Positions 6,462-22,535 of a DNA stretch of 64,000 bases are shown here, in pieces; position 1 is the stretch's first letter, and each line of letters starts with the position of its first letter. The DNA lies in contig OX638292.1 of NCBI GenBank assembly GCA_951812285.1, forward strand, positions 971,008 to 1,035,007. Direction: 5' to 3'. Made by a program: the position numbers and the translations under genes. The notes under the pieces are model-generated. The model was not told the origin of the DNA. It did no database searches and saw only the letters and a list, made by a program, of their open reading frames with translations. This stretch comes from an uncultured Dehalococcoidia bacterium. GTDB taxonomy: Bacteria > Chloroflexota > Dehalococcoidia > Lucifugimonadales > UBA1127.

Positions 6462-6830
6462 ATGGCACGGACGATCAACAAGGTAACGCTTCTGGGCAGA
6501 GTGGGAACCGATCCCGAGATGCAGTACACCCCGGGAGGCACCGCACTCACCAAGCTGCGGCTGGCAACGGACCGCCACCGCTCCAACGGGGACACCGAGG
6601 CCGACTGGCACAACATCGTCTGCTGGGACAAGCAGGCCGAAGCCGTCAACAACTACGTCGGCAAGGGCGAGCGCGTCTACGTCGAGGGCCGCCTCGTCCA
6701 GAACTCGTGGGAGGGCGACGACGGCCAGCGCCGCCACCGCACCGAGGTCCACGCCTCCGAGGTCTTGTTCCTCGACGGCGGGAACGGCAACGGCGGTAGC
6801 GGGCAGGCGGACGACGACTCCCTCTTCTAG
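6462..6830 (+). CDS. ssb: Single-stranded DNA-binding protein
   Basis: OB-fold signature NKVTLLGRVGTDPE...WHNIVCW...GERVYVEGRL and acidic tip DDDSLF. Strong RBS. Confidence 0.85.
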   Translation: MARTINKVTLLGRVGTDPEMQYTPGGTALTKLRLATDRHRSNGDTEADWHNIVCWDKQAEAVNNYVGKGERVYVEGRLVQNSWEGDDGQRRHRTEVHASEVLFLDGGNGNGGSGQADDDSLF

Positions 6831-6945
6831 CCCGCCGATCAACGACTTCATAGCGACGCCTTCCCGAAGGCGCACCACGGGGCCGCTTCCAATCTACAGG
6901 GAGCGGCCCCGTTTCTGTTCTAACCGATAGATGAGGAGGCTGAAG

Positions 6946-8242: not shown

Positions 8243-8748
8243 TCGACTACCTCTACGACGACGGCGGCCGGGCGCATGCCGGATACCGCGGCAAGACCGG
8301 GGACTGCGTCGTCCGCGCCATCGCCATCTGCGCCCGTAAAGAATACCGCGCCGTCTACGTGACGATGGCAGAGCACATGAAGCGCAACGGCTACGCCGCC
8401 AGCGGCAACGCCTACGCCACACGGGAGCGCAACCGCAAAGCGCCCCACCGCAGGGGCCAGCTCACCGCCAAGCGCGTCCAGGACAGCGTTCTCGAAGCCT
8501 ACGGTTTCCGGAAGGTCAGCCTGCCGGCGGGAGAGCGGCCCACGTTCACGGAGGCACACCACCGGTTCGGCGACTGCGTCGTCGGCACCACCAAGCACGT
8601 TGCGGCCATCGTGGACGGCGCCCTCCGGGACACATTCGACGGGCGCACCTACGAGTGGGAATTCGAGACGCGCGAGCGCAAGGCCCAGTCCGTCTGGGTG
8701 CGGTGCCGGTCGGCGGAAAAAGTAAGAAGGAAAGGAGAGACGACATGA
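8239..8748 (+). CDS. Hypothetical protein with a possible Cys/His pair
   Basis: GDCVVRAIAI ... TKHVAAIVDG. ATGA overlaps on both sides. Function not recognised. Confidence 0.45.
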   Translation: MIDYLYDDGGRAHAGYRGKTGDCVVRAIAICARKEYRAVYVTMAEHMKRNGYAASGNAYATRERNRKAPHRRGQLTAKRVQDSVLEAYGFRKVSLPAGERPTFTEAHHRFGDCVVGTTKHVAAIVDGALRDTFDGRTYEWEFETRERKAQSVWVRCRSAEKVRRKGETT

Positions 8749-9794
8749 GACTCGCTGCACAGGCGAAAGGGGGCTACTACCCGACTCCCGAGCGGGTGGT
8801 GGACCTGATCGCCGAACTGATTCACACCCCCTCCGGCTACTACAACCGGGGGCGGGAGACCATCCGCATCCTCGACCCCTGCTGCGGGGGTGGGGACGCG
8901 CTCCAGAGGCTGGCGGAGAACCTCGACCGGCCCAACTCGATGACCATCGAGACCTACGGCGTGGAGCTGCACCGGGACCGGGCGGAGGAGGCCGAGCAGC
9001 GGCTCACCCGCACCCTGGCCGCCGACCTGTTCGCCACTTCCATAGCGAACGGGGCTTTCGGCCTGCTGCTCCTCAACCCGCCCTACGACTACGACTCGGA
9101 GGACAAGCGCACCGAGCACGCCTTCCTGACCCAGACGACGCGCTATCTGGCCGAGAGCGGCCTGCTGGTATTCATCGTCCCCAGGCAACGCCTGGCGGTC
9201 TCGGCCCGCTACCTGTCCACCCACTACGGGCGGTTGCGATGCTGGGCCTTCCCCGACCCGGAGCGCGAGGTCTTCGACCAGGTGGTGCTCATGGGCTACC
9301 GGAAGACGGACCCCGTCCCAGACGCGGCCGCCGAGAGCATGGTCATCGAGTGGTCCATCGGACAGCCGGAGCCGTTGCGCTCCCGGCGCGACCCGTACTC
9401 CTACGGGGAGTACACCCCGGCTACGACGCCCAGCGGCGACGTGCTGTTCACCACCCGCACCGTCGATCCCGTCGCCGCGGCGACGGAGGCCAGGCGGTCG
9501 GGGCTGTGGACGAACACGGACATCACGGACACCCTCTGGCCCGCCGGGGACGCCCGCACCCGCCCGCTGATGCCCCTTCGCAGGGGACACATAGCGATGC
9601 TGGTGGCGGCGGGGTTCCTCAACAACCTGGTCCTCGAAGGCGACGGCAGACGCATCCTGGTCAAGGGGCGCACGTCGAAGGAGATGGAGCTGGTGGAGGA
9701 CAGCCCCGAGAAGGAGGTCCACCGCGAGAAGCTCAAGACCACGGTGGTGGCCCTCGACCTGGACGCCGGAGGGATCGAGGACATCGCCGCATAG
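8745..9794 (+). CDS. DNA amino-methyltransferase (NPPY type)
   Basis: ILDPCCGGGDAL (SAM motif I) and LLLNPPYDY (motif IV). Confidence 0.7.
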   Translation: MRLAAQAKGGYYPTPERVVDLIAELIHTPSGYYNRGRETIRILDPCCGGGDALQRLAENLDRPNSMTIETYGVELHRDRAEEAEQRLTRTLAADLFATSIANGAFGLLLLNPPYDYDSEDKRTEHAFLTQTTRYLAESGLLVFIVPRQRLAVSARYLSTHYGRLRCWAFPDPEREVFDQVVLMGYRKTDPVPDAAAESMVIEWSIGQPEPLRSRRDPYSYGEYTPATTPSGDVLFTTRTVDPVAAATEARRSGLWTNTDITDTLWPAGDARTRPLMPLRRGHIAMLVAAGFLNNLVLEGDGRRILVKGRTSKEMELVEDSPEKEVHREKLKTTVVALDLDAGGIEDIAA

Positions 9795-9839
9795 CACGGA
9801 CGCAATTCAACACATCCATATAAGGGAAGGAGAAGGAAC

Positions 9840-10055
9840 ATGCAGACCCAGACCGTCATGGTGCTCGAAGCCTGCTCGCGGTGCGGGCAGCCCATCGCCC
9901 CCGGCGAACCCGCCATGCAGACCGCCTCGGTGGACCTGGACGAGTACGGCAGGGCGGTGTCCTCGCCGGTGAAGTCCTACCACCTCAGCGGCAGGTGCTA
10001 CGAGGAGTACAGGGCAGCCGAAGCCGCCCGCAGAAAGGCGCTGCTCGCAGCATAG
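9840..10055 (+). CDS. Small hypothetical protein, possible zinc ribbon
   Basis: CSRCGQPI...SGRCYEEY. RBS GGAAGGAG. Confidence 0.35.
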   Translation: MQTQTVMVLEACSRCGQPIAPGEPAMQTASVDLDEYGRAVSSPVKSYHLSGRCYEEYRAAEAARRKALLAA

Positions 10056-10285
10056 ACGGCTCAGAACGAGTCGCTCCAAGAGGTCCGCGCCGGCGGGCCT
10101 CTCCCATCAAATGAGGCGGTGCAACACTGCCGGAATACCACTCGACGAGAGAGGGCGCCGTAGGGCGCTCCTGGTTCGCCTGCAGGCGCTCTCTCTCGCT
10201 GCCTCCTCCGGGGGGTGGCGAGGTGCGTCTTGCAGCAGGCCGCACCCAGGGGCTCCGAGGTTCCCTCCCGAAAGGAGACGCCGAA

Positions 10286-12646
10286 ATGAACCTCGGAGAG
10301 TTCATCGACAAATTCAAGGAGGCCATCGCCAAGAGGGTGGTCGAGTCCTACCCGCCCCTCTACCGGCCCTCGGAGAACGGCGGCATTCTCCCCCGCCTGC
10401 TCCGCAGGCCCCTGGGGGCGCAGGCCGACGCCATCAAGGGCGCAGCCCTCTCCCTCGAAGCCCACCGGGGCACCACTGTCGTCGGGGAGATGGGCACCGG
10501 AAAGACCTTCATCGGGGCCGCCGCCGCGCACATGGCGGGCTTCAAGAGGGTGCTGGTGCTCTGCCCGCCCCACCTGGTTTCCAAGTGGAAGCGGGAGGTG
10601 GAGATGACGGTGCCCGGCGCACGGGGCGTCATCGTCACGTCCATCACCGACCTGGAAAGGCTCAGGTTCTCCATCGGGTCGGGGCCGCTGTTCGCGGTGA
10701 TGAGCCGGGAGCGGGCCAAGCTGTCCTACCGCTGGATGCCCGCCGTCATATACAGGTGGGCCACGTCGAAGGGCAGGCTCATCAGGGAAGAGGAGACGGG
10801 GGAGCCCTTCCGGGTCCCCTGCTGCCCCACCTGCACGGCCCAGGTCGTGGACAAGGACGGGGTGCCGCTCACCGAGAAGGACCTGAACCGCAGGAAGCAC
10901 ACCTGCGACGCCTGCGGCGAACCCCTGTGGCAGGCGGACAAATCGGGCCCGGCCCGCTACCCGCTGGCCGACTACATCAAGCACCGGATGAAGGGCTTCT
11001 TCGACCTGCTGGTCGGAGACGAGGTCCACGAATACAAGGCTCGCGGCTCGGCCCAGGGCATCGCCGCCGGCACCCTCGCGGAGGCCTGCGGCAAGTCCCT
11101 CAGCCTCACGGGAACCATGATGGGCGGCTACAGCTCGACGCTGTTCCATCTCCTCTACAGGTTCTCGCCGGAGATCAGGACGGAGTTCGGGCGCTCCGAT
11201 GAGCACCGCTGGATTCAGCGGTACGGCTTCGAGGAGGTCTCCATCGGCAAGCCCGACGACGACGCCCTGGAGGACGGGCGCAACAGCCGACGCCGCAGCT
11301 ACCGCAAGGTGGTCAGGGAGAAGCCGGGGCTGGTTCCCTCGGCGTTGTTCCACATCATCGGGAACACCATCTTCCTCAAGCTGGCCGATGTCGCCTCGGG
11401 CCTGCCCGACTACGACGAGCAGATCCTCCTGTCCTCGATGGACTCGGAGGAGGACTCGACCGGCTACTCCCAGCGCAGCGCCTACAACCACGTCTTCGAG
11501 GAGCTGAAGAAGGAGCTGTCCAAGGCTCTCAAGGCCGGCTCCAAGCGGCTGCTGGCGACCTACCTGCAGACCCTGCTGGCCTACCCGGACGGCTGCACCA
11601 GGGGAGAGACGGTCTTCGACCCCAGGAGCGGCGACGTCATCGTCGCGGTGCCGCCCCTCTCCGAGGAGAAGCTGTACCCGAAGGAGAAGGCGCTGGTGGA
11701 CCTGGTGGCCGCCGAGCGCATGGCGGGACGGCGGGTGCTGGTCTACGTCACCCACACGGGGACGCGGGACATCACCGGGCGCATGGACGAGTTCCTGACC
11801 CGGCACGGCTTCCGGGTGGCGGTGATGAAGGCCGACGCCGTGGCCCCCGACAAGCGGGAGGCGTGGGTGGCCGAGAAGGTCAAGCAGGGCATCGACGTGC
11901 TGGTCTGCCACCCCCGGCTGGTGCAGACGGGTCTGGACCTCATCGACTTCCCGACCATCGTCTGGGATGAGATCGACTACAGCACCTACGTCATGCGGCA
12001 GGCGTCCCGCCGCTCGTGGCGCATCGGGCAGACCCGCCCGGTCAAGGTGGTGTTCATGTCCTACCGGAACACCCTCCAGGCCGACGCCCTGAAGCTGGTG
12101 GCGAAGAAGCTGCAAAGCTCCCTCGCCGTCGAGGGCGAGCTGCCGGAGGACGGGCTGGCCGCCTACGGCGACGACGGGGACGACCTGATGATGGCCCTGG
12201 CCCGCAAGATCGTCAGCGGCGACGAGGAGGACGCCGAAGCGGAAACGGTGGAGGAGGTCTTCGCCCAGGCAAGGGACGCCGAGGCGACCGCAGAGGAGTT
12301 CCTGGTGGACGACGACTGGAAGGCCGTCGAGATCGAGCCGGAGACCATAGCGGTCAACGGCAATGGGAATGGCAACGGTCACGGGTCCGACATCTTCGGG
12401 CCGACGATCGAGCTTGTCCCCGGCAACGGTCACGCGCCCGTCCCGGTCAATGGCAACGGGGCCAACGGCCACCACGACGAAGAGGCCGACGAGCCCCAGC
12501 AGTCGCTCTTCTCCTGGGCTGAGTTCATGGCCGAGCCGGTCAAGCCGAAGCGGAAGAACGGGAAGCCCCAGGCCTCGACCATCTCGATGTTCGAGTGGGC
12601 GATGGAGCAGGAACGGGAGAAGGAGACGGTCGGCGCGGGACGCTAG
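10286..12646 (+). CDS. SNF2-family helicase with an inserted zinc ribbon
   Basis: GEMGTGKT (motif I), GDEVHEYK (II), QASRRSWRIGQTRPVKVVF (VI). Insert CCPTCTAQ...HTCDACGEPL. AAAGGAG lies before ATG 10286. Confidence 0.8.
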   Translation: MNLGEFIDKFKEAIAKRVVESYPPLYRPSENGGILPRLLRRPLGAQADAIKGAALSLEAHRGTTVVGEMGTGKTFIGAAAAHMAGFKRVLVLCPPHLVSKWKREVEMTVPGARGVIVTSITDLERLRFSIGSGPLFAVMSRERAKLSYRWMPAVIYRWATSKGRLIREEETGEPFRVPCCPTCTAQVVDKDGVPLTEKDLNRRKHTCDACGEPLWQADKSGPARYPLADYIKHRMKGFFDLLVGDEVHEYKARGSAQGIAAGTLAEACGKSLSLTGTMMGGYSSTLFHLLYRFSPEIRTEFGRSDEHRWIQRYGFEEVSIGKPDDDALEDGRNSRRRSYRKVVREKPGLVPSALFHIIGNTIFLKLADVASGLPDYDEQILLSSMDSEEDSTGYSQRSAYNHVFEELKKELSKALKAGSKRLLATYLQTLLAYPDGCTRGETVFDPRSGDVIVAVPPLSEEKLYPKEKALVDLVAAERMAGRRVLVYVTHTGTRDITGRMDEFLTRHGFRVAVMKADAVAPDKREAWVAEKVKQGIDVLVCHPRLVQTGLDLIDFPTIVWDEIDYSTYVMRQASRRSWRIGQTRPVKVVFMSYRNTLQADALKLVAKKLQSSLAVEGELPEDGLAAYGDDGDDLMMALARKIVSGDEEDAEAETVEEVFAQARDAEATAEEFLVDDDWKAVEIEPETIAVNGNGNGNGHGSDIFGPTIELVPGNGHAPVPVNGNGANGHHDEEADEPQQSLFSWAEFMAEPVKPKRKNGKPQASTISMFEWAMEQEREKETVGAGR

Positions 12647-12740: not shown

Positions 12741-12938
12741 ATGGCACGCGTGTTTGTCTACGACGACAGAGAGTTCCCGGACCCCGACCCCGAGATGACC
12801 GTCGACCAGGTGAAGGCGACTCTCAGCGATTTCTACGGGGAGATCGCCAACGCCTCGGTGAAGGAGACGACCAGGGGCGAGGACACCATCTACGAGTTCC
12901 AGCGGCGGGTGGGCACCAAGGGGGCTTTCACCCGGTAA
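12741..12938 (+). CDS. Small ubiquitin-like (beta-grasp) protein, PRTRC protein C-like
   Basis: 65 aa, MARVFVYDDREFPDPDPEMTVDQVKATLSDFYGEIANASVKETTRGEDTIYEFQRRVGTKGAFTR. Its size, operon position ahead of E2/JAB/E1 and the G-x-K-G near the C-terminus fit the PRTRC_C family as I remember it. The fold is not verified. Confidence 0.6.
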   Translation: MARVFVYDDREFPDPDPEMTVDQVKATLSDFYGEIANASVKETTRGEDTIYEFQRRVGTKGAFTR

Positions 12939-12950
12939 GGAGGGCATCCG

Positions 12951-13181
12951 ATGGACAACCCCACCTTCGCGGGTCTGCTGGCGGCCACACCGCCTACGGA
13001 CCTCAAGATAACCGAGCTCACGGCGGAGCTCACACGGCCCGACGGCGCCCTCGACCTGGACGCCGCGGCCGCACGCCAGAAGGATGTCGAAATGGCCTGC
13101 GCCCAGGCGCAGGACTACGCCTCGGCCACGGGGCGGCTGAAGGAGGCGCTGCGGTGGCAGCTGCGGCCCCGGCGCTCCTGA
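12951..13181 (+). CDS. Hypothetical small protein inside the Ubl cassette
   Basis: AAGGAGGG RBS before the ATG. No motif. Confidence 0.4.
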   Translation: MDNPTFAGLLAATPPTDLKITELTAELTRPDGALDLDAAAARQKDVEMACAQAQDYASATGRLKEALRWQLRPRRS

Positions 13182-13237
13182 GCGGTCTTTCTCAACTGCT
13201 CCTGCGGCGTCCGCCGTTGCTGCGGGAGCTGGTGACC

Positions 13238-14002
13238 GTGATCGGCTACGCCGACGACTACGCATGGTTCATGGGACTGGTGCGCCGCCTCTTCCCCAAC
13301 GAGGCGGAGGCGGCGCTCTCGGCCCCCGACGTGCGCACCAGGGTAGAGCGCTTCGCCAGTCTCTTCGGCGAGCGTCACTTCCCCCTCTACGGACCGTTCA
13401 TCGAATACTGGATGGAATGGGAGGGGGAGGAACCCCCCTGGAGCTGGATGCGCAGGGGCATCCCCTTCGACCTGATGGGCTTCGGCTACGACGGCCTCCA
13501 CGAGCTGTGGAACGGCTACCGGGACGGCATATCGGCCCTGCTCCTGCTGGCCAGACCCCCGGACTCCTTCTACGGGGAGTCCGACGAGATACGCGTGGCC
13601 TGGCTGGAGTCGGCCGCCGAGCGCATTCCGCAGGAGACCCTCCAACGGCTTCCCCAAGGCGGCGTACCGGTCGAGACCCTCACCGAGGCGGTGAAGGATA
13701 CCCGGTTCGAGGGGGCGGCGAAGGCCGCCGCCTGGGTCTTCGCCGAGACGGGCAACTTCTTCCTCGACCACTGCTACGAGGACGGCAACTATGACGGGTT
13801 CTGCGACCCGTGGGACGACGAGATCATCGCCGATGGTACGGAGGAGTGGCGGAGGGCCAGCGCCCTGATGGACTCGGTATTCACGCTGGCCGACTGGCTG
13901 GAGGAGGACCTTGCGGCCCGCTTCGCCGAGATGCTGGACGACGTCCTGCCCCGGCTCCCCGAACAAGAACAAGGAAAGGAGGACGACGACCATGACGACT
14001 GA
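13238..14002 (+). CDS. Hypothetical acidic protein inside the Ubl cassette (possibly PRTRC protein F-like)
   Basis: Trp/acidic-rich (YWMEWEGEEPPWSWM..., C-terminal EQEQGKEDDDHDD). The GTG start is provisional. The end overlaps the next gene. Confidence 0.45.
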   Translation: MIGYADDYAWFMGLVRRLFPNEAEAALSAPDVRTRVERFASLFGERHFPLYGPFIEYWMEWEGEEPPWSWMRRGIPFDLMGFGYDGLHELWNGYRDGISALLLLARPPDSFYGESDEIRVAWLESAAERIPQETLQRLPQGGVPVETLTEAVKDTRFEGAAKAAAWVFAETGNFFLDHCYEDGNYDGFCDPWDDEIIADGTEEWRRASALMDSVFTLADWLEEDLAARFAEMLDDVLPRLPEQEQGKEDDDHDD

Positions 14003-14702
14003 CGCAGAGAAGACCGAGTGGTCCCTGCCCGGACTGGATGAGATGCCCAGGGACAAGCTGAACCTCCAACTGGAGGTCTACGACGAGACGCTCCTGCTGC
14101 GGGGCTTCGAGGGCGACTCAACCTGGGTGAGGACCGTCTCGGCGGACGAGATCGCCAACGTGTTCACCCAACACCTGGGCTTCTCCTCGGGGCTGCTGCC
14201 CCGAGACGCCCTCTGGTGGAACCAGGGCGAGACCGGGCAGATGGTGGCCCTGTGGAGGCCGCCCCAGGTCTGGCCGGTGGCCCTGCAACGGGAGGCGTTC
14301 AAGCCCCCCGCACGGCTCCGGCTCCCCATGCCGGGGCTGGTCTTCGTCTGCTCGCCGGCACGCGCTCCCTGGGTCTACGCCGCACTGGACAGGCCGGCCG
14401 ACCCCGAGCAGATGCTCCACCGGATGCCCGCCTTCAACGTCTTCAGGGACGGGCGGGTCTGCCCCGGAAGCCACAAGTTTCCCGAGGAGGTGGGGCTGAT
14501 ACCGGAGTCCTTCTTCCGGTCCTACTTCTCGGGCACCGGGGATACGCGGGAGCGCTCGAAGAAGCACCCCGACAACCTGCACGCGCTATGGGAGGAGCTC
14601 GATGGAGAGACTGAGTACCCGGTTGAGGACCTTGTTCCCCAGTGCACGGTGGCCCAGGCTATCGCGGCCTCCCAGGGGAGACGGGGCTATGGCTACCGAT
14701 AA
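13992..14702 (+). CDS. E2/UBC-like protein (PRTRC protein B-like)
   Basis: LHRMPAFNVFRDGRVCPG mimics the UBC HPN flap with a Cys 8 residues after the Asn. It sits between the Ubl gene and the JAB/E1 genes. Confidence 0.55.
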   Translation: MTTDAEKTEWSLPGLDEMPRDKLNLQLEVYDETLLLRGFEGDSTWVRTVSADEIANVFTQHLGFSSGLLPRDALWWNQGETGQMVALWRPPQVWPVALQREAFKPPARLRLPMPGLVFVCSPARAPWVYAALDRPADPEQMLHRMPAFNVFRDGRVCPGSHKFPEEVGLIPESFFRSYFSGTGDTRERSKKHPDNLHALWEELDGETEYPVEDLVPQCTVAQAIAASQGRRGYGYR

Positions 14703-15315
14703 CGACACACGGGGTCCGGTGGGCTACCTCATCAATAACAACGAGGGACTGACGGGAGCGCACGGAATCGGCTACGACTACGTGCTCGGAGCGGGGGGCC
14801 TCTACGTCCAGTCCGAGAGTGCCCATCTGACGGCACGGGTGCCGGTCGCCCCCTGCGAGGTGCGGGGACTCGCTCCCGTGGCCGAGAAGGTGGAGTTGGC
14901 GAACGGCCCAATACCGGCCCGGCTCTTCGAGATCGGGCTGCTCTGGTTCGAGGACGCCCCGCACACCGAGCGGTTCTTCGCCGTGGGGTGGGACGGGCGC
15001 TTCTACCGGCTGGTGGTGCCCGAACAGGAGGGGACGGCTTCATCCCTCGAATACACGCCGCCCGCAGGGGTGGTCGCAGAGTTCCACTCCCACGGAAGCT
15101 CCCGCGCCTTCTTCTCGAAGACCGACGACAGTGACGAGCTGGGCTTCCGCATCTACGGCGTCGCAGGACGCCTCGACAGCGACCGGCCCGAGTTGAGTCT
15201 CCGGGTCGGCGTCTACGGCCACTTCGCCCCGGTGGAGTGGTCGCAAATCTTCGACGGCCCGCACCCCGGCCTCCGGCTGGTGGGCGAGGAGCCGGAACCG
15301 GAAGACATCAACTGA
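14689..15315 (+). CDS. JAB/JAMM metallopeptidase (PRTRC protein A-like)
   Basis: Intact JAMM motif EFHSHGSSRAFFSKTDDSDE (HxH-x7-S-xx-D). Confidence 0.8.
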   Translation: MATDNDTRGPVGYLINNNEGLTGAHGIGYDYVLGAGGLYVQSESAHLTARVPVAPCEVRGLAPVAEKVELANGPIPARLFEIGLLWFEDAPHTERFFAVGWDGRFYRLVVPEQEGTASSLEYTPPAGVVAEFHSHGSSRAFFSKTDDSDELGFRIYGVAGRLDSDRPELSLRVGVYGHFAPVEWSQIFDGPHPGLRLVGEEPEPEDIN

Positions 15316-15334
15316 GTAAGGAGGTGAACGAAAG

Positions 15335-16135
15335 ATGCCCTACTACCTGGACAACGCGTTCCTGCTGGACGACCCCTGGATCACGGTGGTCGGCTGCGGC
15401 GGGACGGGCGGCTTCGTTGCCGAGGGTCTCTGCCGACTCTTCCAGGGGCGGCAGGCCAACATCGTCCTGGTCGACCACGACCGGGTGGAACCCCACAACC
15501 TGCTCCGCCAGAACTTCTACCCTGGCGACGTGGGCGGGTTCAAGAGCCAGGTCCTCGCAGACCGGCTGGCAAAAGCCTACGGGCGACCGGTGGGCTACTC
15601 GGTGTACCCATTTCGGGAGTACGAGGACCAGCCCCACGAGCACGGCTACCCCGGCCTGCCAGCCTACAGAGAAAGCCTCATCATCGGCTGCGCCGACAAC
15701 GCCCTCGCACGGAAGGCGATGGCGGAGACCCTGCCGGGCGACCCGCGCCGGTGGCTCATCGACGCGGGCAACGACACCAACTGGGGACAGGTGCTGGTCG
15801 GAAACGTCTCCGGCAACGTGAGTTGGGAGGATCCCCCCTTCTCAGGCGAGACCTGCTACCTGGCCCCCGCGCCCACGCTCCAGCGCCCCGACCTGCTGAC
15901 GGCCGTCTCGACCAGGCCGCCCGACGTGGACTGCGCGGCGGCCCTCGACCTCACCGACCAGGATCCCACCATCAACCAGATGATGGCGTCCCTGGTGCTC
16001 CAGGTGGTGCGCCGCATGGTGGCGGGAACCTGCCCCTTCATGGCCCTCTACCTGGACATGGACCTGGGCACGGTCATACCCACCTACGTCACGCCGGAGG
16101 CGGTGGAGCGGACGGTGGGGACCTACGTCGAGTGA
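15335..16135 (+). CDS. ThiF/MoeB/E1-like adenylyltransferase
   Basis: VVGCGGTGGFVAEGLCRL (Rossmann GxGxxG) and VDHDRVEPHNLLRQNF. Confidence 0.85.
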   Translation: MPYYLDNAFLLDDPWITVVGCGGTGGFVAEGLCRLFQGRQANIVLVDHDRVEPHNLLRQNFYPGDVGGFKSQVLADRLAKAYGRPVGYSVYPFREYEDQPHEHGYPGLPAYRESLIIGCADNALARKAMAETLPGDPRRWLIDAGNDTNWGQVLVGNVSGNVSWEDPPFSGETCYLAPAPTLQRPDLLTAVSTRPPDVDCAAALDLTDQDPTINQMMASLVLQVVRRMVAGTCPFMALYLDMDLGTVIPTYVTPEAVERTVGTYVE

Positions 16136-16183: not shown

Positions 16184-16579
16184 ATGACTGACTCAAACGG
16201 GACCACAACGACCACGACCATGTGGCAGGACAACCACAGCGGGCTGCGCAGGCACAAGCTCATGACGAAGGAGCTCGCAGACACCATCCCGCCCCTGTAT
16301 GCCAACGACGGCGCAGACGACCCAGACGCCGTGGTCGCCAGGGTGAAGCTGTTCAGCCCCTATGCCAACTGGACCTGGTACATCACGGAATGGGATGCGG
16401 AGACCGGAACCTGCTTTGGCCTCGTCGAGGGGTTCGAGACGGAACTGGGGTACTTCGATCTCTCGGAGATGGCCGAGGCCACCGTGTTCGGCGGCGTCCC
16501 CGCCGTGGAGCGCGACCTCTACTGGAAGCCGACGACCATCGGCGAGATTAGGAGGCAGGCGTCAGGGATAGCGGCCTAG
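16184..16579 (+). CDS. DUF2958-family protein
   Basis: IPPLYANDG...VKLFSPYANWTWYITEWD...CFGLVEGFETELGYFDLSE is the characteristic DUF2958 pattern common on ICEs and plasmids. Confidence 0.7.
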   Translation: MTDSNGTTTTTTMWQDNHSGLRRHKLMTKELADTIPPLYANDGADDPDAVVARVKLFSPYANWTWYITEWDAETGTCFGLVEGFETELGYFDLSEMAEATVFGGVPAVERDLYWKPTTIGEIRRQASGIAA

Positions 16580-16630
16580 CGATAGGCGGTCACGGATGCA
16601 ATGAGAGACAAGCACAGAAAGGAGAAGGAC

Positions 16631-17137
16631 ATGCCAGACAAGGTTGGAACGGAAGCAACCTGCTCGGACGCGCCGAGCGTGGACGACGATCTCTTCGGCG
16701 ATGCGGCGGCGGACGATAAGGCCGCCGTGTCCGTCGATGAGCAGAACGCCGACGGGGAGGCCCCGCAGGAGACGCAGCACGACTCCGATGACGCCGGGGA
16801 ACCTGCCGACGCCGAGGCGGAGGCCGCCTCGACGGACGACCTGAAGGTCGTCGTGTCCATCAAGGGAGGCAGGGCCACCATCGGGGTGCAGCGGCCCTCG
16901 GCGGACCCGCACATCGAGACGTTCGACGACCTGGACGAGACCGGGCTGACGACTGAGGTCCCGGCGGTGATCGAGAGGGCAAGGGCCAGGTGGGAGGAGA
17001 CGCCCAAGCATCCCGCCTATGAGCGGCCCGTTCCCCCGGCCCGGCGTCGCAACCGGCGTCAGCAGGGGACGGCACAGGACGCAACGGCGGAGACGCAGGA
17101 AGCCGAGACGCAACAGCAAACACTGAGGCTGTTCTAG
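16631..17137 (+). CDS. Hypothetical acidic protein (possibly PRTRC protein E-like); its 3' end is duplicated at 25820-25958
   Basis: AAAGGAGAAGG RBS, acidic N-terminal half, C-terminus ...ETPKHPAYERP...QQQTLRLF. Confidence 0.5.
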   Translation: MPDKVGTEATCSDAPSVDDDLFGDAAADDKAAVSVDEQNADGEAPQETQHDSDDAGEPADAEAEAASTDDLKVVVSIKGGRATIGVQRPSADPHIETFDDLDETGLTTEVPAVIERARARWEETPKHPAYERPVPPARRRNRRQQGTAQDATAETQEAETQQQTLRLF

Positions 17138-17154
17138 GCTGGAGCGCGACACAC

Positions 17155-17189: not shown

Positions 17190-17329
17190 GCCGTCCATGT
17201 ATGCGGCCTTTTTTGCGTTTCCGGGGATGGCCTTCCCTGAGCGACCCCTTTTGCGTTTAAGGAGGAACAAGAAGGATGATTGCGAGAGTCGAAACGAAGC
17301 CGAAGAGGCAGACCTACAGGAGGTATGAA

Positions 17330-17743: not shown

Positions 17744-17823
17744 ACGATTTCGGTCCTTCTCTCCATGTACGGCCCCTTTTGCGTTTCAGGACCCGCGGAC
17801 GCGGCCCCTACCGGCGGGTTGGC

Positions 17824-18069
17824 TCAGCCGGTGAAGATGTGGCCGAGGCCCATACTCTCGGCCAGTTCAAGCAGCGCCCTGCGGTGCTGGTAGTTGGGCC
17901 GCGTCCTGCCCTCGGACCATCGCCATACGGTGTGCCGATAGGTCCCGAGGCGGCGAGCGATCTCCGACCACGAATAGCCCGACTCCCTCTGGAATCTCTT
18001 GAGACGCTCCGGGAAGTCCACCGGGATTGCGTAGGTCTCTCTGGGATGGTGTATGCGCTGTCTTGGCAT
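17824..18069 (-). CDS. 81-aa helix-turn-helix protein, copy A
   Basis: MPRQRIHHPRETYAIPVDFPERLKRFQRESGYSWSEIARRLGTYRHTVWRWSEGRTRPNYQHRRALLELAESMGLGHIFTG. The SWSEIARRLG..HTVWRW segment looks HTH-like. The protein is identical to copy C apart from two N-terminal substitutions. Confidence 0.7.
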   Translation of the reverse strand: MPRQRIHHPRETYAIPVDFPERLKRFQRESGYSWSEIARRLGTYRHTVWRWSEGRTRPNYQHRRALLELAESMGLGHIFTG

Positions 18070-18309
18070 CGAGCCGGTCCTTCAAGGTCCGCGCTCCTTC
18101 CTGGAGGAATCCAAGCTGGGCAGCATCCCTGAGCAGAGCGGAGCCTGCAGCCCTCGCGCTGACCCGGCGGACATCACCCGTTGACAGTGTCCGTGGATCC
18201 GTTGGACGCAAACGGCCAACCCTCCCGCGCGGGCGCTAGTCCGGAGCGGCTCCCCAGGCCATTGCGGTGAAAGCGCCGCGGCCGTTGGCGTTGATGGCCG
18301 CGACACTGA
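17837..18309. repeat. ~473-bp near-identical direct repeat, copy A (HTH gene, spacer, FN3 3' end)
   Basis: Aligns by eye almost base-for-base with 19695-20166. Confidence 0.8.
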
Positions 18310-18560
18310 TCGTGTAGCGGGTCCCGCTGGTCAGGCCGGAGAGCGTCGTGCTCCTCGGATTGGTGCAGCCTGTACCACCGTGACAGATGCGCAGCACGTC
18401 CATCTCGGTTGGCCTCGGGGTCACCATGACCTCTGTATGGGGGCCGCCAGAAGCCTTGCTATAGCGAAGAACATACGCATAGATGTCAGCGCCGCCGTCG
18501 TTAGCGGGCGGGTCCCAGCATCGCGGCCCGCGCGGCGCGCCGATGTGGACCATCAGGGCG
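18236..18560 (-). pseudogene. Terminal FN3 domain fragment, probably the decayed 3' part of an LRR-FN3 gene
   Basis: WDPPANDGGADIYAYVLRY...LSGLTSGTRYTISVAAINANGRGAFTAMAWGAAPD* is one FN3 domain. Upstream sequence is only FN3-like in another frame. The ORF-track start at 18829 is a GTG with no RBS. Confidence 0.5.
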
Positions 18561-18821
18561 TGAGGGAATGGATTAACGCGCACGGCTTCAGCCAGAACGA
18601 GGTGGTGCGGCGGGCTGGGACTAACTCCTCCCACCCCTCCCAGATTGCGACCGGGACGCTCAGCCCCTTGGCTGGCGTTCTCGGCAGGCTGCACTGGGTC
18701 TTGTTCCAGCGGACCAGGGCGAAGGAGCGGGTCATGCCCGCCGAGTTGAAGGTGCTGGGCTGGCGCAAGGGCGAGCGGAGCGGGATAGTGGTGCACGGAG
18801 CGGGCGGACCCGGGCGCGGCG

Positions 18822-19589
18822 TCATTCACAGGCGGGCAGTCCGAGTTCGTCTAAGTCGTTGTCGGCCACGCCTTGTAATACAACGGGTATGCATCCGCTC
18901 AACTGGTTGCGGGAGAGGCTCAGGACTTGGAGGTTGGAGAGGTTTCCCAGCTCCGGCGGTATCTCCCCGCTCAAGTCGTTGCTGTGGAGGAACAGCTGTT
19001 CAAGGTTGGAGAAGTTTCCCAGCTCCGGCGGTATCTCCCCGCTCAAGTCGTTGCTGTTGAGGAACAGCTGTTCAAGGTTGGAGAGGTCTCCCAGCCACGG
19101 CGGTATCTCCCCGGTCAACTGGTTGAGGCCGAGCCCCAGCGATTCAAGGTTGGAGAGGCTGCCCAGCTCCGGCGGTATCTCACCCGTCAGCCGGTTCCAG
19201 CGGAGGTCCAGCGTTATGACCCGACCGTTGGCGTCCGTCTCGACGCCATACCACTCATCCAGCGGCGCGCCGCTCAGCCAGTATGTGTTGTCGTCCCAGT
19301 TTGGGCCGTCCGTGGCGTTGTAGAGGGCGACCAGGGCTTCTCTGTCCCCTGACGGAGACCCGCTGACGGCTACGGAAACAGGCGTAGGTGTGTCCGCAGA
19401 CGCGGGCGTATTGCCGGGCGTCATGCCGGGGGCTTGGGTGGACTGCGTTGGCCCCTCGGACGGCGAGTCACCGCCGCAGGCCGCCAGGGACGCTGCGGCA
19501 AGCGCCGTCAGCAGGAGGGCCAGGGCTGCTTGCCGGGCTTGCCTCCCCAGGCCGTGTGGATTCACGTGGACGGACCAGCCTTTGATCAT
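18822..19589 (-). CDS. Secreted lipoprotein with plant-type (LxxLxLxxNxLSGxIPxxLG) leucine-rich repeats
   Basis: Signal peptide with lipobox ALLLTALAAASLAAC. At least five 24-residue repeats of the form LTGEIPPELGSLSNLESLGLGLNQ. Confidence 0.8.
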   Translation of the reverse strand: MIKGWSVHVNPHGLGRQARQAALALLLTALAAASLAACGGDSPSEGPTQSTQAPGMTPGNTPASADTPTPVSVAVSGSPSGDREALVALYNATDGPNWDDNTYWLSGAPLDEWYGVETDANGRVITLDLRWNRLTGEIPPELGSLSNLESLGLGLNQLTGEIPPWLGDLSNLEQLFLNSNDLSGEIPPELGNFSNLEQLFLHSNDLSGEIPPELGNLSNLQVLSLSRNQLSGCIPVVLQGVADNDLDELGLPACE

Positions 19590-19590
19590 T

Positions 19591-19926
19591 CTATCTCTCC
19601 TTTCGCAGGCGGCTCAGACACCCCCTGAACTCCTGCGTCCGTTTAGCAATGGAGGTGTGGGCGCTCCAACGACGCCTCAACCTGAATCGCGAAAATGTGG
19701 CCGAGCCCATACTCTCGGCCAGTTCAAGCAGCGCCCTGCGGTGCTGGTAGTTGGGCCGCGTCCTGCCCTCGGACCATCGCCATACGGTGTGCCGATAGGT
19801 CCCGAGCCGGCGAGCGATCTCCGACCACGAATAGCCCGACTCCCTCTGGAATCGCTTGAGACGCTCCGGGAAGTCCACCGGGATTGCGTAGGTCTCTCTG
19901 GGATGGTGTATGCGCTGTCTTGGCAT
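19591..19926 (-). CDS. HTH protein copy B, with the native C-terminus replaced by read-through sequence
   Basis: The first 73 aa are identical to copy A. Identity ends at the duplication junction (19695), giving a 111-aa ORF. Possibly non-functional. Confidence 0.5.
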   Translation of the reverse strand: MPRQRIHHPRETYAIPVDFPERLKRFQRESGYSWSEIARRLGTYRHTVWRWSEGRTRPNYQHRRALLELAESMGSATFSRFRLRRRWSAHTSIAKRTQEFRGCLSRLRKER

Positions 19927-20166
19927 CGAGCCGGTCCTTCAAGGTCCGCGCTCCTTCCTGGAGGAATCCAAGCTGGGCAGCATCCCTGAGCAGAGCGGAG
20001 CCTGCAGCCCTCGCGCTGACCCGGCGGACATCACCCGTTGACAGTGTCCGTGGACCCGTTGGACGCAAACGGCCAACCCTCCCGCGCGGGCGCTAGTCCG
20101 GAGCGGCTCCCCAGGCCATTGCGGTGAAAGCACCGCGTCCGTTGGCGTTGATGGCCGCGACACTGA
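19695..20166. repeat. ~472-bp near-identical direct repeat, copy B
   Basis: Matches 17837-18309. Confidence 0.8.
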
Positions 20167-20240
20167 AGGCTGAGGAGATTTCCGAGTTCCGGCGGTATCT
20201 CTCCGCTCAACTGATTGTTGGTGAGCGACAGTTTGATTAC
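20095..20240 (-). pseudogene. FN3 3'-end remnant fused directly to an LRR-repeat remnant
   Basis: 20095-20166 matches 18236-18309. 20167-20240 resembles LRR coding sequence (...ccggcggtatctctccgctcaactgattg...). About 0.6 kb present in copy A is missing here. Confidence 0.5.
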
Positions 20241-20350
20241 AAGGTCGCAAACTCACTATCCCTCGTTGCACGTCGTTCAGCAAGTCTTCCAGTGCTTCTC
20301 CCAGCGTTATGGGGGGGCGCAGTTAGTGTCGTCAGCGTGCGCGTCGTTGA

Positions 20351-21907: not shown

Positions 21908-21951
21908 TTTCGGCTCCTATACAAGATGATCACCTCGAAATTAGCCCCCTC

Positions 21952-22143
21952 TCACAGATGCCGCTGGTTGGGCCGGACGCCCTCGCTCCTCCACCGCCGT
22001 ATCGTTAGGGGGTAGGTCTCGATGCGGCGAGCGATCGCCGCCCACGTCAGCCCCGACTCCTCCCTGAACCGCTTCAATCACCCCGGAAAGTCGTCGGGGA
22101 AAACGTAGACCCTTCTGCTGTGCTGTATGCGCTGTCTCGGCAT
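21952..22143 (-). pseudogene. Divergent, interrupted fourth copy of the HTH gene
   Basis: Reads MPRQRIQHSRRVYVFPDDFPG*LKRFREESGLTWAAIARRIETYPLTIRRW..., with an in-frame stop and a truncated C-terminus. Confidence 0.5.
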
Positions 22144-22260
22144 CGGGCCGGTCCTTCACGAATCGGCTCTTCCTCCTGCCGACCCAGCGGACATCACCCG
22201 TTGACGGTGTCCGTGAACCCCGATGGACACCCACCGGCCACCCCCCCCCGCTCCGGCGCC

Positions 22261-22385
22261 AGTCCGGGGCTGCGCCGAATGACATGGCGGTGAAGGGGCC
22301 GCGGCCGTAGACGTTGATGGCCGAGACGCTGATCACGTAGCGGGTCCCGCTGGTCAGGCCGGAGAGCGTCAGGCTCCTCGGATTC
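22261..22385 (-). pseudogene. FN3 3'-end remnant joined directly to leader copy 1 (internal deletion of a whole FN3 gene)
   Basis: ...LSGLTSGTRYVISVSAINVYGRGPFTAMSFGAAPD with the stop lost. The junction lies at the shared heptamer tcggatt (22378-22384). Confidence 0.5.
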
Positions 22386-22535
22386 AGGCGGTGAAAATCG
22401 GGGGGGGGGGGGTAGAACTAACGCGCTATTATCGGCGCGCCGGGCGCGGGATATCGCGCCGGCCGATACCTGTTCAGGTCTTCTCTGTTCGACAGTCACG
22501 AGACACCTCCTATTTTGTGGGTATACTCCCCCACG
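22386..22535 (-). promoter_or_regulatory. Leader copy 1 (truncated promoter, SD plus GTG uORF start at 22499, poly-C13)
   Basis: Homologous to the leaders at 25452-25700 and 29401-29615. Confidence 0.5.
22400..22412. repeat. Homopolymer G13 (C13 on the gene strand)
   Basis: Counted directly. Confidence 0.9.

What the first reader, a model, noticed from the sequence alone, without database searches (positions are those of the whole stretch)
12741..16135. Complete ubiquitin-like conjugation cassette (Ubl, E2-like, JAB, E1-like) carried by the mobile element
One operon encodes four parts of a conjugation pathway. The first is a 65-aa beta-grasp-sized protein ending ...RRVGTKG-AFTR. The second has a UBC-like flap and catalytic Cys (HRMPAFNVFRDGRVC, Cys 8 residues after the Asn). 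The third carries an intact JAMM motif (HSHGSSRAFFSKTD). The fourth is a ThiF/E1 Rossmann protein (GCGGTGG...HNLLRQ). Gene order and content match the TIGRFAM-defined but functionally uncharacterised PRTRC cassette of plasmids and ICEs. They also mirror the four-gene Bil (bacterial ISG15-like) antiphage operons shown in 2024 work to conjugate a Ubl to phage proteins. The extra residues after the last Gly suggest JAB-dependent maturation. What such a cassette does for a mobile element (defence, anti-defence, or control of transfer or replication) is unknown.
Basis: partly seen in the sequence, partly recalled or inferred. Interest (0 to 1): 0.65.

Follow-up and report, generated by a model that had tools for sequence, protein, structure and literature searches.

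The report
Divergent PRTRC ubiquitin-like tagging operon
An integrated mobile element of a sponge-associated SAR202 (Chloroflexota) bacterium carries an intact, selected six-gene operon for a small ubiquitin-like protein, its activating enzyme, a cysteine carrier protein and a trimming protease; it is a divergent member of the long-known but never tested PRTRC family, so what it tags and why is still unknown.

Summary
All quoted motifs sit at the stated places, except that the last Gly is G61, not G60.

HMMs assign the four proteins to Prok_Ub/PRTRC_C, Prok-E2_D/PRTRC_B, PRTRC_A (JAMM) and PRTRC_ThiF.

The cassette has six translationally coupled genes, not four. A 76-aa protein and a 282-aa all-alpha protein lie between the Ubl and E2-like genes.

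It is syntenic in 68 loci of Dehalococcoidia/SAR202 MAGs, with up to three copies per genome, and is under purifying selection (dN/dS 0.15-0.36).

Key residues are invariant out to Burkholderiales and cyanobacterial relatives:
- Ubl GxKG
- E2-like N149-x7-C157
- JAMM H133/H135/S143/D146
- E1 ATP-binding motifs and C200

The Ubl tail after G61 varies freely (4-11 aa). Cyanobacterial relatives have the Ubl either fused to an 80-aa domain or ending exactly at the Gly. This supports maturation by cleavage.

Two cautions apply:
- The UBC fold of the E2-like protein was not confirmed. The AF2 model (pLDDT 74) had no Foldseek match, and hhalign to E2s gave 3.7% probability.
- ParB, PRTRC_E and PRTRC_F are not detectable, and it matches no PADLOC defence model.

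This is operon type 6d of Iyer et al. 2006. I found no experimental study of it. It is a new, divergent member of a known, unsolved kind.

The parts
12741..12938 (+). Pro-form of a 65-aa ubiquitin-like protein (Prok_Ub / PRTRC_C). Its conserved end is ...EFQRRVGTKG61, followed by a 4-aa disposable tail, AFTR.
   Evidence: Pfam Prok_Ub 5e-15 and TIGR03738 at 50.4 bits, above its cutoff. VGTKG is invariant in 64 of 65 relatives, while the tail varies from 4 to 11 aa. G58, K60 and G61 are invariant out to Burkholderiales and cyanobacteria. dN/dS is 0.15.
12951..13181 (+). p76, a conserved 76-aa protein of unknown function. It occupies the slot that holds a small gene, or a C-terminal Ubl extension, in other PRTRC-like cassettes.
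   Evidence: It is conserved at 71-97% identity in 65 loci, with dN/dS 0.27. A perfect SD sequence lies in the Ubl tail. It has no family hit. Ralstonia and Pseudanabaena have a small gene in the same position. Homology to those genes is not shown (E 8.6).
13154..14002 (+). F-like protein, 282 aa and all-alpha, in the position of PRTRC protein F. It is a candidate substrate adaptor (E3-like) or a substrate.
   Evidence: The start was fixed by the conserved N-terminus. The family has 468 representative clusters. The AF2 model has pLDDT 91.4 and pTM 0.85, with no Foldseek match in the PDB or BFVD. There is no TIGR03742 hit in 101 members, and hhalign to PRTRC_F gives 0.1% probability. The SAR202 profile hits the syntenic cyanobacterial proteins (1e-5). 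dN/dS is 0.36.
13992..14702 (+). E2-family (Prok-E2_D / PRTRC_B) protein. Its invariant P146-x2-N149-x7-C157-x-G159 motif marks the presumed thioester carrier.
   Evidence: Pfam Prok-E2_D 3e-16 and TIGR03737 2e-17. P114, P146, N149, C157, G159, F179 and L214 are invariant in 137 sequences. The AF2 model has pLDDT 73.9. The fold is not confirmed as UBC.
14689..15315 (+). JAB/JAMM metallopeptidase (PRTRC_A), the presumed Ubl-maturing and deconjugating enzyme.
   Evidence: TIGR03735 7e-15 and Prok-JAB 4e-5. H133, S134, H135, S143 and D146 are invariant in 68 SAR202 and 5 distant sequences. E94 aligns with a Glu in the relatives.
15335..16135 (+). Single-domain ThiF-type E1 (PRTRC_ThiF), 266 aa.
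   Evidence: TIGR03736 2e-27 and Pfam ThiF 5e-12. G20, G22, G23, G25, D47, D49, N55, R58, Q59, K70, D121 and C200 are invariant. It has no CxxC zinc motifs. The nearest solved structures match only weakly: MccB, UBA5 and a ThiF-type protein, 2e-4 over the Rossmann part.
16184..16579 (+). DUF2958 protein, co-transcribed with the cassette. In some relatives it is fused to the next gene.
   Evidence: Pfam DUF2958 2.5e-10. It is syntenic in 62 of 68 loci. Fusions occur in L042, L043, L045, L054, L059 and L062.
16601..17137 (+). 178-aa acidic protein with a small conserved core and a near-invariant C-terminal [QE]TLRLF motif.
   Evidence: The motif is present in 44 of 47 relatives. T174, L177 and F178 are invariant. 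Its resemblance to PRTRC_E tails and to the beta-clamp-binding motif is a lead only. hhalign to E-like proteins gives 0.09% probability.
17190..17207 (+). Terminator-like hairpin with a T-run, marking the end of the conserved unit.
   Evidence: Found. Synteny among loci and metatranscriptome contig cover both stop at about 17.2-17.35 kb.
8655..12646 (+). Upstream context in the same direction: a DUF6094 DNA methyltransferase, a 71-aa ORF and an SNF2/ResIII helicase.
   Evidence: Family hits. These genes are syntenic in most loci. An N6 methylase or an SNF2 gene also precedes proteobacterial PRTRC cassettes.

Best explanation
This is an intact, divergent PRTRC-type (Iyer 2006 'operon 6d') ubiquitin-like protein-tagging module. 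It is built into the DNA-processing backbone operon of an integrated conjugative element of SAR202/Dehalococcoidia bacteria.

Proposed chemistry (inferred, not shown):
1. The 65-aa Ubl is made as a pro-form.
2. The JAMM peptidase removes the variable tail to expose G61.
3. The single-domain E1 adenylates G61 and takes it onto C200.
4. The Ubl passes to C157 of the E2-family protein.
5. It is joined to lysines of target proteins. The JAMM enzyme can remove it again.

The two extra conserved proteins (p76 and the all-alpha F-like protein) most likely choose or hold the substrate.

Because of where it sits, I think it serves the element's own establishment and DNA replication-recombination programme. 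It would tag DNA-associated element or host proteins. I do not think it acts as a stand-alone antiphage system.
For: Identity:
- HMM hits for all four enzymes or carriers.
- The same order C-(small)-F-B-A-ThiF as annotated PRTRC cassettes in Caballeronia, Ralstonia and Piscinibacter.
- It matches the 6d description: Ubl, a helical protein, a Cys-bearing E2-like protein, JAB and E1.

Functionality:
- Catalytic and ATP-binding residues are invariant across 68 SAR202 loci and distant relatives.
- dN/dS is 0.15-0.36 for all six genes.
- The genes are translationally coupled.
- Contigs from two metatranscriptome runs, at least 85% alike, cover 8.0-17.35 kb.

Maturation:
- GTKG is invariant while the tail is free in length and sequence.
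- Cyanobacterial Ubls are fused to an ~80-aa domain after GxKG. In Pseudanabaena the Ubl ends exactly at ...GPKG, with that domain as the next gene.
- Type II BilA shows the same pattern and is cut by its JAB.

Context:
- One co-directional run holds primase, a Rad52-like protein, a Cas4/RecE-like exonuclease, SSB, RadC, a methyltransferase and SNF2, then the cassette and DUF2958.
- No strong + strand terminator lies between 6912 and 17190.
- TrbL/VirB6 lies beside the module in a related contig.
- Proteobacterial cassettes sit next to antirestriction, N6-methylase, ParB and UvrD genes. Cyanobacterial ones sit next to primase, SSB, dnaN, pol III gamma/tau and holA.
- No PADLOC defence model matches. 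No relative was found in IMG/VR.
Against: - No biochemical step is shown for any member of this family.
- The E2-family protein could not be shown to have a UBC fold. Foldseek's best E-value was 0.46, hhalign gave 3.7% probability, and there is no PDB sequence relative.
- The E1 thioester Cys (C200) is assigned only by conservation and position.
- The role is inferred from neighbours alone. Defence systems also ride on mobile elements.
- Metatranscriptome contigs can contain DNA carry-over.
- The element type rests on one TrbL neighbour in a relative. No relaxase or integrase was seen, because the element runs off the window's left end.
Confidence: 0.5

Rival explanations
1. It is an antiphage defence system that works like Bil. 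The Ubl would be conjugated to phage structural proteins during infection, and the element carries it as cargo that benefits the host.
For: It has the same parts list and the same Ubl-E2-JAB-E1 order as BilABCD. The pattern of a conserved Gly followed by a variable tail is also shared. The characterised bacterial Ubl/E1/E2 operon families, CBASS type II and Bil, are immune systems, and Bub is suspected to be one. The E1 Rossmann part weakly matches CBASS E1-E2 models (5e-10).
Against: The Ubl, p76, F-like, E2-like and JAB proteins match no PADLOC model. The E1 is a 266-aa single domain, not IAD-AAD-CYS. No CapH/CapP or CapW/BrxR regulator was seen among the neighbouring genes that were annotated. 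The cassette is a fixed part of a conserved backbone operon in 68 loci, not a variable island gene. Up to three diverged copies occur per genome. The neighbours are replication and recombination genes in three phyla.
Confidence: 0.2
2. It is an anti-defence device of the conjugative element. Expressed early in a new recipient, it would tag and disable (or mark for degradation) host immune proteins. It would act alongside the orphan methyltransferase and other antirestriction genes.
For: It is directly linked to an orphan-type DNA methyltransferase (DUF6094, whose best PADLOC hit is the MADS methylase mad2), plus SSB and RadC. The Piscinibacter and Ralstonia cassettes follow an antirestriction gene and/or an N6 methylase. 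From my own knowledge, not tested here: such gene sets typify plasmid leading regions.
Against: No oriT or relaxase was located, so 'leading region' is not shown. No target is known. A search for papers linking Ubl or ThiF with leading-region anti-defence found nothing relevant.
Confidence: 0.2
3. It is not a protein-conjugation system. Instead it would be a ThiS/ThiF-like sulfur-carrier or small-molecule (peptide or nucleotide) activation pathway, with the Cys protein and JAB serving biosynthesis.
For: The E1 is of the minimal ThiF/MoeB/MccB type, and its nearest solved relatives include MccB. The UBC fold of the Cys protein is unconfirmed.
Against: No rhodanese, cysteine desulfurase, ThiG/MoaE or other biosynthetic gene lies in or near the cassette in any of the roughly 80 loci inspected. 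The E1 lacks the CxxC zinc site. The invariant Asn-x7-Cys motif and a JAMM peptidase are typical of conjugation systems.
Confidence: 0.07

Closest known systems
PRTRC cassette (TIGR03734-03742), equal to 'operon type 6d' of Iyer, Burroughs and Aravind 2006 (PMC1779556); Pfam Prok_Ub, Prok-E2_D and Prok-JAB
   Same: It has a Ubl with a conserved C-terminal Gly, a helical protein, a Cys-bearing E2-family protein, a JAB and a ThiF-type E1, in the same order. It is carried on mobile elements, with a methylase or an SNF2 gene upstream. I found no experimental study of its function.
   Different: Only protein C reaches the curated score. B, A and ThiF score at 48-66% of their cutoffs. No ParB was found. 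PRTRC_E is not detectable. The F-position protein shows no detectable homology to PRTRC_F. The nearest relatives are the unannotated cyanobacterial and Chloroflexota plasmid versions (E1 about 30-33% identical).
Bil (bacterial ISG15-like) type I/II BilABCD
   Same: Both have Ubl, E2, JAB and E1 in that order. In both, the Ubl has a conserved Gly followed by a non-conserved tail. The Bil tail is removed by its JAB.
   Different: [quoted passage not shown] This E1 is a 266-aa single domain. The Bil operons described there have four genes, with no p76 or F-like gene. No PADLOC model was hit. The context is a replication and recombination operon, not a defence locus with CapH/CapP.
Bub (6E/DUF6527) type I/II
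   Same: Both are bacterial Ubl-E1-E2 operons on mobile elements, with a JAB in type I, and their biological role is unproven.
   Different: Bub enzymes lack catalytic Cys residues and use Ser/Tyr oxyesters. They also carry the BubE serine protease. Here, Cys residues are invariant in both the E1 and the E2-family protein, and there is no DUF6527.
Type II CBASS Cap2/Cap3 (6A/6B)
   Same: Both have an E1 Rossmann module (weak HMM match) and a JAB peptidase.
   Different: Cap2 is an E2-E1 fusion that conjugates a cGAS-like enzyme. CBASS has no free Ubl. There is no CD-NTase or effector here.
ThiS-ThiF / MoaD-MoeB sulfur carriers
   Same: Both have a small beta-grasp-family protein ending in Gly and a minimal homodimer-type adenylating enzyme.
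   Different: This cassette has an E2-family Cys protein and a JAB, has no sulfur-transfer partners, and its E1 has no CxxC zinc site.

Membership tests
PRTRC (TIGRFAM/NCBIfam) | PRTRC protein C (Ubl), TIGR03738, at or above the curated cutoff | tested here: met
   50.4 bits against a cutoff of 45.95.
PRTRC (TIGRFAM/NCBIfam) | PRTRC proteins B, A and ThiF at or above their curated cutoffs | tested here: not met
   B scores 63.1 against 131.45, A scores 55.2 against 101.8, and ThiF scores 96.2 against 144.75. These models are nevertheless the best hits, with E-values from 1e-15 to 1e-27.
PRTRC (TIGRFAM/NCBIfam) | PRTRC ParB-family protein next to the cassette | tested here: not met
   No ParB domain was found in any ORF scanned between 901 and 17743, nor in those ORFs that were scanned in about 8-10 kb upstream in L081 and L082. 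The element runs off the window's left end, so absence from the whole element is not proven.
PRTRC (TIGRFAM/NCBIfam) | PRTRC proteins E and F | tested here: not met
   No hit even at E <= 10. None of 101 F-like family members match TIGR03742. hhalign gives 0.1% probability for F-like against PRTRC_F and 0.09% for the 178-aa protein against E-like proteins. Only the gene position is equivalent.
Operon type 6d (Iyer et al. 2006) | The gene set: Ubl with a conserved C-terminal Gly, an alpha-helical protein, an E2-like protein with a conserved Cys, a JAB and an E1-like protein | tested here: met
   All five are present in that order. The Gly and Cys are invariant. The description was read.
UBC/E2 superfamily | UBC fold, with the catalytic Cys following an HPN-like Asn | tested here: inconclusive
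   The Pfam Prok-E2_D hit (3e-16) and the invariant N149-x7-C157 motif are positive. Against this, the AF2 model (pLDDT 73.9) has no Foldseek match in the PDB (best E 0.46). hhalign against UBE2D2/N/I gives 3.7% probability over 28 columns, although those columns align the Asn and Cys.
Ubiquitin-like beta-grasp | Beta-grasp fold ending in an exposed Gly | tested here: inconclusive
   The sequence-family assignment is strong (Prok_Ub 55.5 bits against a gathering threshold of 25). A profile search of PDB sequences gave only noise.
JAMM/MPN+ metallopeptidase | The motif E ... HxH-x7-S-x2-D | tested here: met
   H133, H135, S143 and D146 are invariant. E94 aligns with a Glu in relatives.
ThiF/E1 adenylating enzymes | GxGxxG loop, Asp, Arg and Lys ATP ligands, and a Cys after the crossover region | tested here: met
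   G20, G22, G23, G25, D47, D49, R58, K70, D121 and C200 are invariant. The role of C200 is inferred.
Bil (BilABCD) | Tandem-domain E1 (IAD-AAD-CYS) and Bil-type E2, Ubl and JAB | tested here: not met
   The E1 is 266 aa with one adenylation domain. No PADLOC model matches the Ubl, E2-like or JAB proteins. Whether PADLOC 2.0 holds Bil models was not checked.
Bub (6E) | DUF6527 protease, and E1/E2 proteins without catalytic Cys | tested here: not met
   There is no DUF6527 hit. C157 and C200 are invariant.

The most novel reading that the evidence does not exclude
The cassette could be a mobile-element counterpart of eukaryotic PCNA/replisome ubiquitination.

The evidence that prompts this reading:
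- The co-transcribed 178-aa protein ends in a near-invariant ...TLRLF.
- The E-like proteins of other PRTRC-like cassettes end in ...Q[IL][TS]LF.
- These tails resemble the bacterial beta-clamp-binding motif QL[SD]LF.
- The cyanobacterial cassettes sit beside dnaN, pol III gamma/tau and holA.

On this reading the Ubl would be conjugated at the sliding clamp or replisome of the incoming or replicating element. The agents would be an E2-family protein and an F-like adaptor whose folds have no solved relative.
Probability: 0.07. Interest if true: 0.9.

Novelty: new member of a known kind. Interest (0 to 1): 0.5.

Why it matters
Iyer and colleagues defined five bacterial Ubl/E1/E2/JAB operon types (6a-6e) in 2006. 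According to the papers read here:
- 6c is now type II Bil.
- 6e is Bub.
- 6a (MBL) and 6b (its pol-beta nucleotidyltransferase operon corresponds, in my reading, to type II CBASS) are studied alongside CBASS.

Type 6d, which is PRTRC, appears to be the one with no experimental work. It is also the one most tightly tied to plasmids and ICEs rather than to defence islands.

This window shows that the lineage extends into uncultured sponge and coral-associated SAR202 Chloroflexota. There it is very abundant: more than 1,250 clusters at 90% identity for the E2-family protein alone, and up to three element copies per genome. It is under purifying selection.

The comparison also sharpens testable points for the whole family:
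- the exact maturation site, which is the Gly of GxKG
- the invariant Asn-x7-Cys in the E2-family protein and C200 in the E1
- a large, confidently modelled all-alpha partner family (468 representative clusters) with no Foldseek match in the PDB or BFVD
- a possible link to the replisome

The SAR202 host cannot be cultured. The practical value is therefore as comparative evidence that points experiments at Cupriavidus, Burkholderia or Ralstonia PRTRC plasmids.

Tried and rejected
- DNA similarity search of the cassette against plasmids found no match. tblastn of the F-like protein against plasmids also found none.
- PHROGs gave no hit for any cassette protein except weak E1 matches. A scan of IMG/VR with the E1 found no relative. 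A prophage origin is therefore not supported. The suspected 'phage packaging' genes at 58-63 kb are Mrp/NADH antiporter subunits, and everything beyond about 22 kb is ordinary chromosome.
- The second homologue search, with a mixed E2 alignment, returned only the same SAR202 clade and was wasted. A third search with only distant members gave the diverse set used for AF2.
- PDB sequence searches with the E2 and Ubl profiles and with the JAB gave nothing usable.
- I tested whether p76 is homologous to the cyanobacterial Ubl C-terminal domain. This is not supported (E 8.6). The Ubl and p76 being in the same frame is probably chance, because in Pseudanabaena they are not.
- I tested whether the 178-aa protein is a displaced PRTRC_E. 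This is not supported by hhalign (0.09% probability). Only the C-terminal motif and the general layout are alike.
- An exact-sequence lookup of the window's leftmost protein found nothing on record. The element's left part, including any integrase, relaxase or T4SS genes, could not be recovered for this copy.
- One literature query on Bil/Bub/'6D' was swamped by unrelated 'Bubalus' and 'bilateral' papers.

Full report
**1. What is in the sequence**

The region lies in a 66-71% GC block in which all real genes between 901 and 17743 are on the + strand.
- Ubl, 12741-12938 (65 aa, ...RRVGTKG61-AFTR)
- E2-like, 13992-14702 (N149-x7-C157 within HRMPAFNVFRDGRVC)
- JAB, 14689-15315 (H133-S-H135-x7-S143-x2-D146)
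- E1, 15335-16135 (G20-C-G-G-T-G25, N55-L-L-R58-Q59)

The only numerical slip is G60, which should be G61.

Family assignment is statistically solid.
- Pfam: Prok_Ub 5e-15, Prok-E2_D 3e-16, ThiF 5e-12, Prok-JAB 4e-5.
- NCBIfam: PRTRC_C 50.4 bits (cutoff 45.95), PRTRC_B 2e-17, PRTRC_A 7e-15, PRTRC_ThiF 2e-27.

**2. The unit is larger than four genes**

Two further ORFs sit between the Ubl and E2-like genes.
- p76 (12951-13181). Its Shine-Dalgarno sequence, TAAGGAGG, is formed by the Ubl stop codon and the last tail codons.
- An all-alpha 'F-like' protein. Gene calls of its homologues, the conserved peptide ...APALLSGLxxLLLRRPPSLRELV..., and ATG starts at that position in many relatives place its start at GTG 13154. 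That gives 282 aa and a 28-nt overlap with p76.

The F-like/E2 and E2/JAB junctions overlap by 11 and 14 nt. DUF2958 (16184-16579) and a 178-aa gene (16601-17137) follow. A hairpin with a T-run then sits at 17190-17207. No comparably strong + strand terminator-like site lies between 6912 and 17190.

**3. Relatives and selection**

A scan of one genome per species found 68 loci. All are in Dehalococcoidia, SAR202 or Chloroflexota MAGs, many with sponge-type sample names, and up to three diverged copies occur per genome. The protein database holds more than 1,250 clusters at 90% identity for the E2-family protein.

Across the loci the following order is conserved: Rad52-like, DUF7007, Cas4/RecE-like exonuclease, SSB, RadC, unknown, DUF6094 methyltransferase, 71-aa ORF, SNF2 helicase, Ubl, p76, F-like, E2, JAB, E1, DUF2958, 178-aa protein. 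Synteny breaks right after the 178-aa gene.

dN/dS of the window against the loci is 0.15 (Ubl), 0.27 (p76), 0.36 (F-like), 0.26 (E2), 0.31 (JAB) and 0.23 (E1). All six genes are therefore maintained.

Some copies are interrupted:
- A group II intron lies between the F-like and E2 genes in L002, L019 and L024.
- Transposases lie between E2 and JAB in L062 and L066.

Contigs from a coral and a sponge metatranscriptome, at least 85% alike, tile 8.0-17.35 kb and stop there. This is weak evidence of transcription, because DNA carry-over is possible.

**4. The mobile element**

Beyond about 22 kb the window is ordinary chromosome: a histidine kinase, CobW, MFS, SDR, a subtilase and Mrp antiporter genes. 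The element therefore enters from the left edge and ends near 17.2-17.8 kb.

Upstream in the window lie a DnaG-type primase (about 1990-3035), the Rad52-like gene, the exonuclease, SSB and RadC.

In a related metagenome contig (L082) a TrbL/VirB6 gene lies a few kb upstream of the primase. No relative is present in IMG/VR, and PHROGs give nothing for the cassette. A conjugative element is the best reading. However, no relaxase or integrase was seen for this copy.

**5. Relation to PRTRC**

Annotated PRTRC cassettes have the order ParB-E-C-(small ORF)-F-B-A-ThiF. This was checked in Caballeronia, Ralstonia and Piscinibacter plasmids. They have an N6 methylase, an antirestriction gene or SNF2 upstream, and UvrD downstream.

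The window has C-(p76)-(F-like)-B-A-ThiF, with a methylase and SNF2 upstream. This is also the 'fourth operon type (6d)' of Iyer et al. 2006: Ubl with a C-terminal Gly, a helical protein, an E2-like protein with a conserved Cys, a JAB and an E1.

Strict membership fails in several respects.
- B, A and ThiF score below the curated cutoffs.
- No ParB was found.
- E and F are undetectable.

The nearest relatives are unannotated cassettes on cyanobacterial and Chlorohelix plasmids. Their E1 is 30-33% identical. The SAR202 profiles hit their E1, JAB and E2 proteins at 1e-11 to 1e-40, and their F-position proteins at 1e-5 to 1e-2.

**6. Catalytic residues**

- E2 family, 137 sequences spanning SAR202, Chloroflexi and Burkholderiales: P114, P146, N149, C157, G159, F179 and L214 are invariant.
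- JAB: G37, H133, S134, H135, F142, S143, D146 and a few others are invariant.
- E1: the GxGGxG loop, D47, D49, N55, R58, Q59, K70, C119, D121 and C200 are invariant. There is no CxxC zinc motif.
- Ubl: G58, K60 and G61 are invariant.

**7. Maturation**

Among 65 SAR202 Ubls, EFQRRVGTKG is invariant in 64. What follows is 4-11 residues of unrelated sequence, with 49 different tails.

Burkholderiales PRTRC_C proteins also have 3-9 residue tails after GAKG.

In cyanobacteria the Ubl takes one of two forms:
- In Leptolyngbya, Anabaena, Nostoc and L. boryana it is fused, directly after GxKG/GQNG, to an ~80-aa helical domain ending ...GF.
- In Pseudanabaena it ends exactly at ...AGPKG-stop, with that domain encoded by the next gene.

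The functional C-terminus is therefore the Gly, and most members need a peptidase to expose it. Type II BilA has the same layout and is cut by its JAB. The cleavage itself is inferred, not shown.

**8. Fold tests**

E2-like protein:
- With a 137-sequence alignment, AF2 gave pLDDT 73.9 and pTM 0.68, with the core at 78-94.
- Its order of elements is a helix, a beta-meander, the loop with N149 and C157, then three helices. This is reminiscent of a UBC domain with extra strands.
- Foldseek found nothing in the PDB (best E 0.46).
- The family profile finds no PDB sequence.
- hhalign against a UBE2D2/UBE2N/UBE2I alignment gave only 3.7% probability over 28 columns.
- Those 28 columns do put N149 on the HPN Asn and C157 on the catalytic Cys.
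- The 'E2' label therefore rests on Pfam and Iyer's profile work plus this motif. My tests neither confirm nor refute the fold.

F-like protein:
- With 101 diverse sequences, the model is confident (pLDDT 91.4, pTM 0.85, about 17 helices).
- It has no match in the PDB (best E 1.9) or in BFVD (best E 1.5).
- Its best-conserved positions are mostly Pro, Phe, Trp and Gly, plus H116, R147, E152 and D205.
- This looks more like a scaffold with one polar patch than an obvious enzyme.

**9. Comparison with characterised systems**

- Bil shares the parts and their order. However, its E1 has tandem domains, and it associates with defence-type regulators.
- Bub works without catalytic Cys residues and has the BubE protease.
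- CBASS Cap2 is an E2-E1 fusion with no free Ubl.
- PADLOC gives no hit for the Ubl, p76, F-like, E2-like or JAB proteins. It gives only a Rossmann-segment match of the E1 to CBASS E1-E2 models.
[quoted passage not shown] One recent preprint even misreads the acronym.

**10. Mechanism and role**

The chemistry I propose is: JAB trimming, E1 adenylation, C200 thioester, C157 thioester, then a lysine isopeptide that the JAB can reverse. This is inferred from conserved residues and from how Bil and eukaryotic systems work.

For the biological role, the only evidence is association. In three phyla the cassette is embedded among replication, recombination and antirestriction genes of plasmids and ICEs. 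In SAR202 it is a fixed backbone gene set rather than variable cargo.

I therefore favour a function in the element's own establishment and DNA-processing programme. Bil-like antiphage defence and anti-defence are live rivals.

One lead is worth recording. The 178-aa protein ends in [QE]TLRLF in 44 of 47 relatives. It is fused to DUF2958 in six loci. The E-like proteins of other cassettes end in ...QITLF, QLTLF, QISLF, QRSLFD or ASLFD. From my own knowledge these tails resemble the beta-clamp-binding motif QL[SD]LF. Cyanobacterial cassettes also neighbour dnaN, pol III gamma/tau and holA. This is untested.

**11. Verdict**

The cassette is real, complete and selected. It is a divergent new member of a known but experimentally untouched family. 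Interest is moderate. The family-level question is open and attractive, but this instance sits in an uncultured host. Its main value is comparative.

Noticed in passing
window 17800-29600: A unit repeats four times. Each unit holds an 81-aa HTH gene on the minus strand (17824-18069, 19591-19926, about 22.0 kb, 26072-26317) followed by a large secreted eukaryote-like protein gene (LRR 18822-19589; fn3-rich 22539-25466). G13-G16 homopolymer tracts lie at 22397-22412, 25516-25531 and 29467-29482. The same HTH-plus-giant-protein pairs follow the element in other loci.
   Followed up: partly
window 25815-25959 and 26414-26442: A 145-nt copy, 94% identical, of the 3' end of the 178-aa gene (16994-17138), plus the downstream 29-mer. 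It looks like the relic of the right end of a second element copy.
   Followed up: no
L002:7691-9685, L019:7686-9680, L024:7322-9316: A group II intron ORF (RT, maturase and HNH; 664 aa; same strand) is inserted between the F-like and E2 genes of three related cassettes.
   Followed up: partly
L062:11470-12972 and L066:10543-12066: Transposases (rve/Mu-type and DDE_Tnp_1_4) are inserted between E2 and JAB. The E2 gene of L066 is truncated before the catalytic Cys.
   Followed up: partly
protein P0163 (440 aa); loci L042, L043, L045, L054, L059, L062: Natural fusions occur. One protein joins E2 and JAB (PF14460 + PF14464). DUF2958 is fused to the 178-aa protein in six loci. Both argue that these partners work together.
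   Followed up: partly
window 6363-6407 and 6870-6914: Two 82%-identical GC-rich hairpins (13-14 bp stems) bracket the SSB gene (6462-6830).
   Followed up: no
window 120-900: A 780-bp stretch with no coding signal (flat GC3) lies upstream of the first gene of the co-directional module. It holds the only sigma-70-like site found in 18.5 kb (317-346). It could be a regulatory or origin region.
   Followed up: no
window 5241-6347 with 3236-4159: A Cas4/RecE-like exonuclease and a Rad52-family annealing protein form a phage-style recombination pair inside what appears to be a conjugative element.
   Followed up: no
literature: bioRxiv 10.64898/2025.12.11.693706: A 2025 ICE preprint expands PRTRC as 'Pilus Retraction/Contraction system'. 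In the TIGRFAM name it stands for ParB-Related, ThiF-Related Cassette, which I state from my own knowledge.
   Followed up: yes
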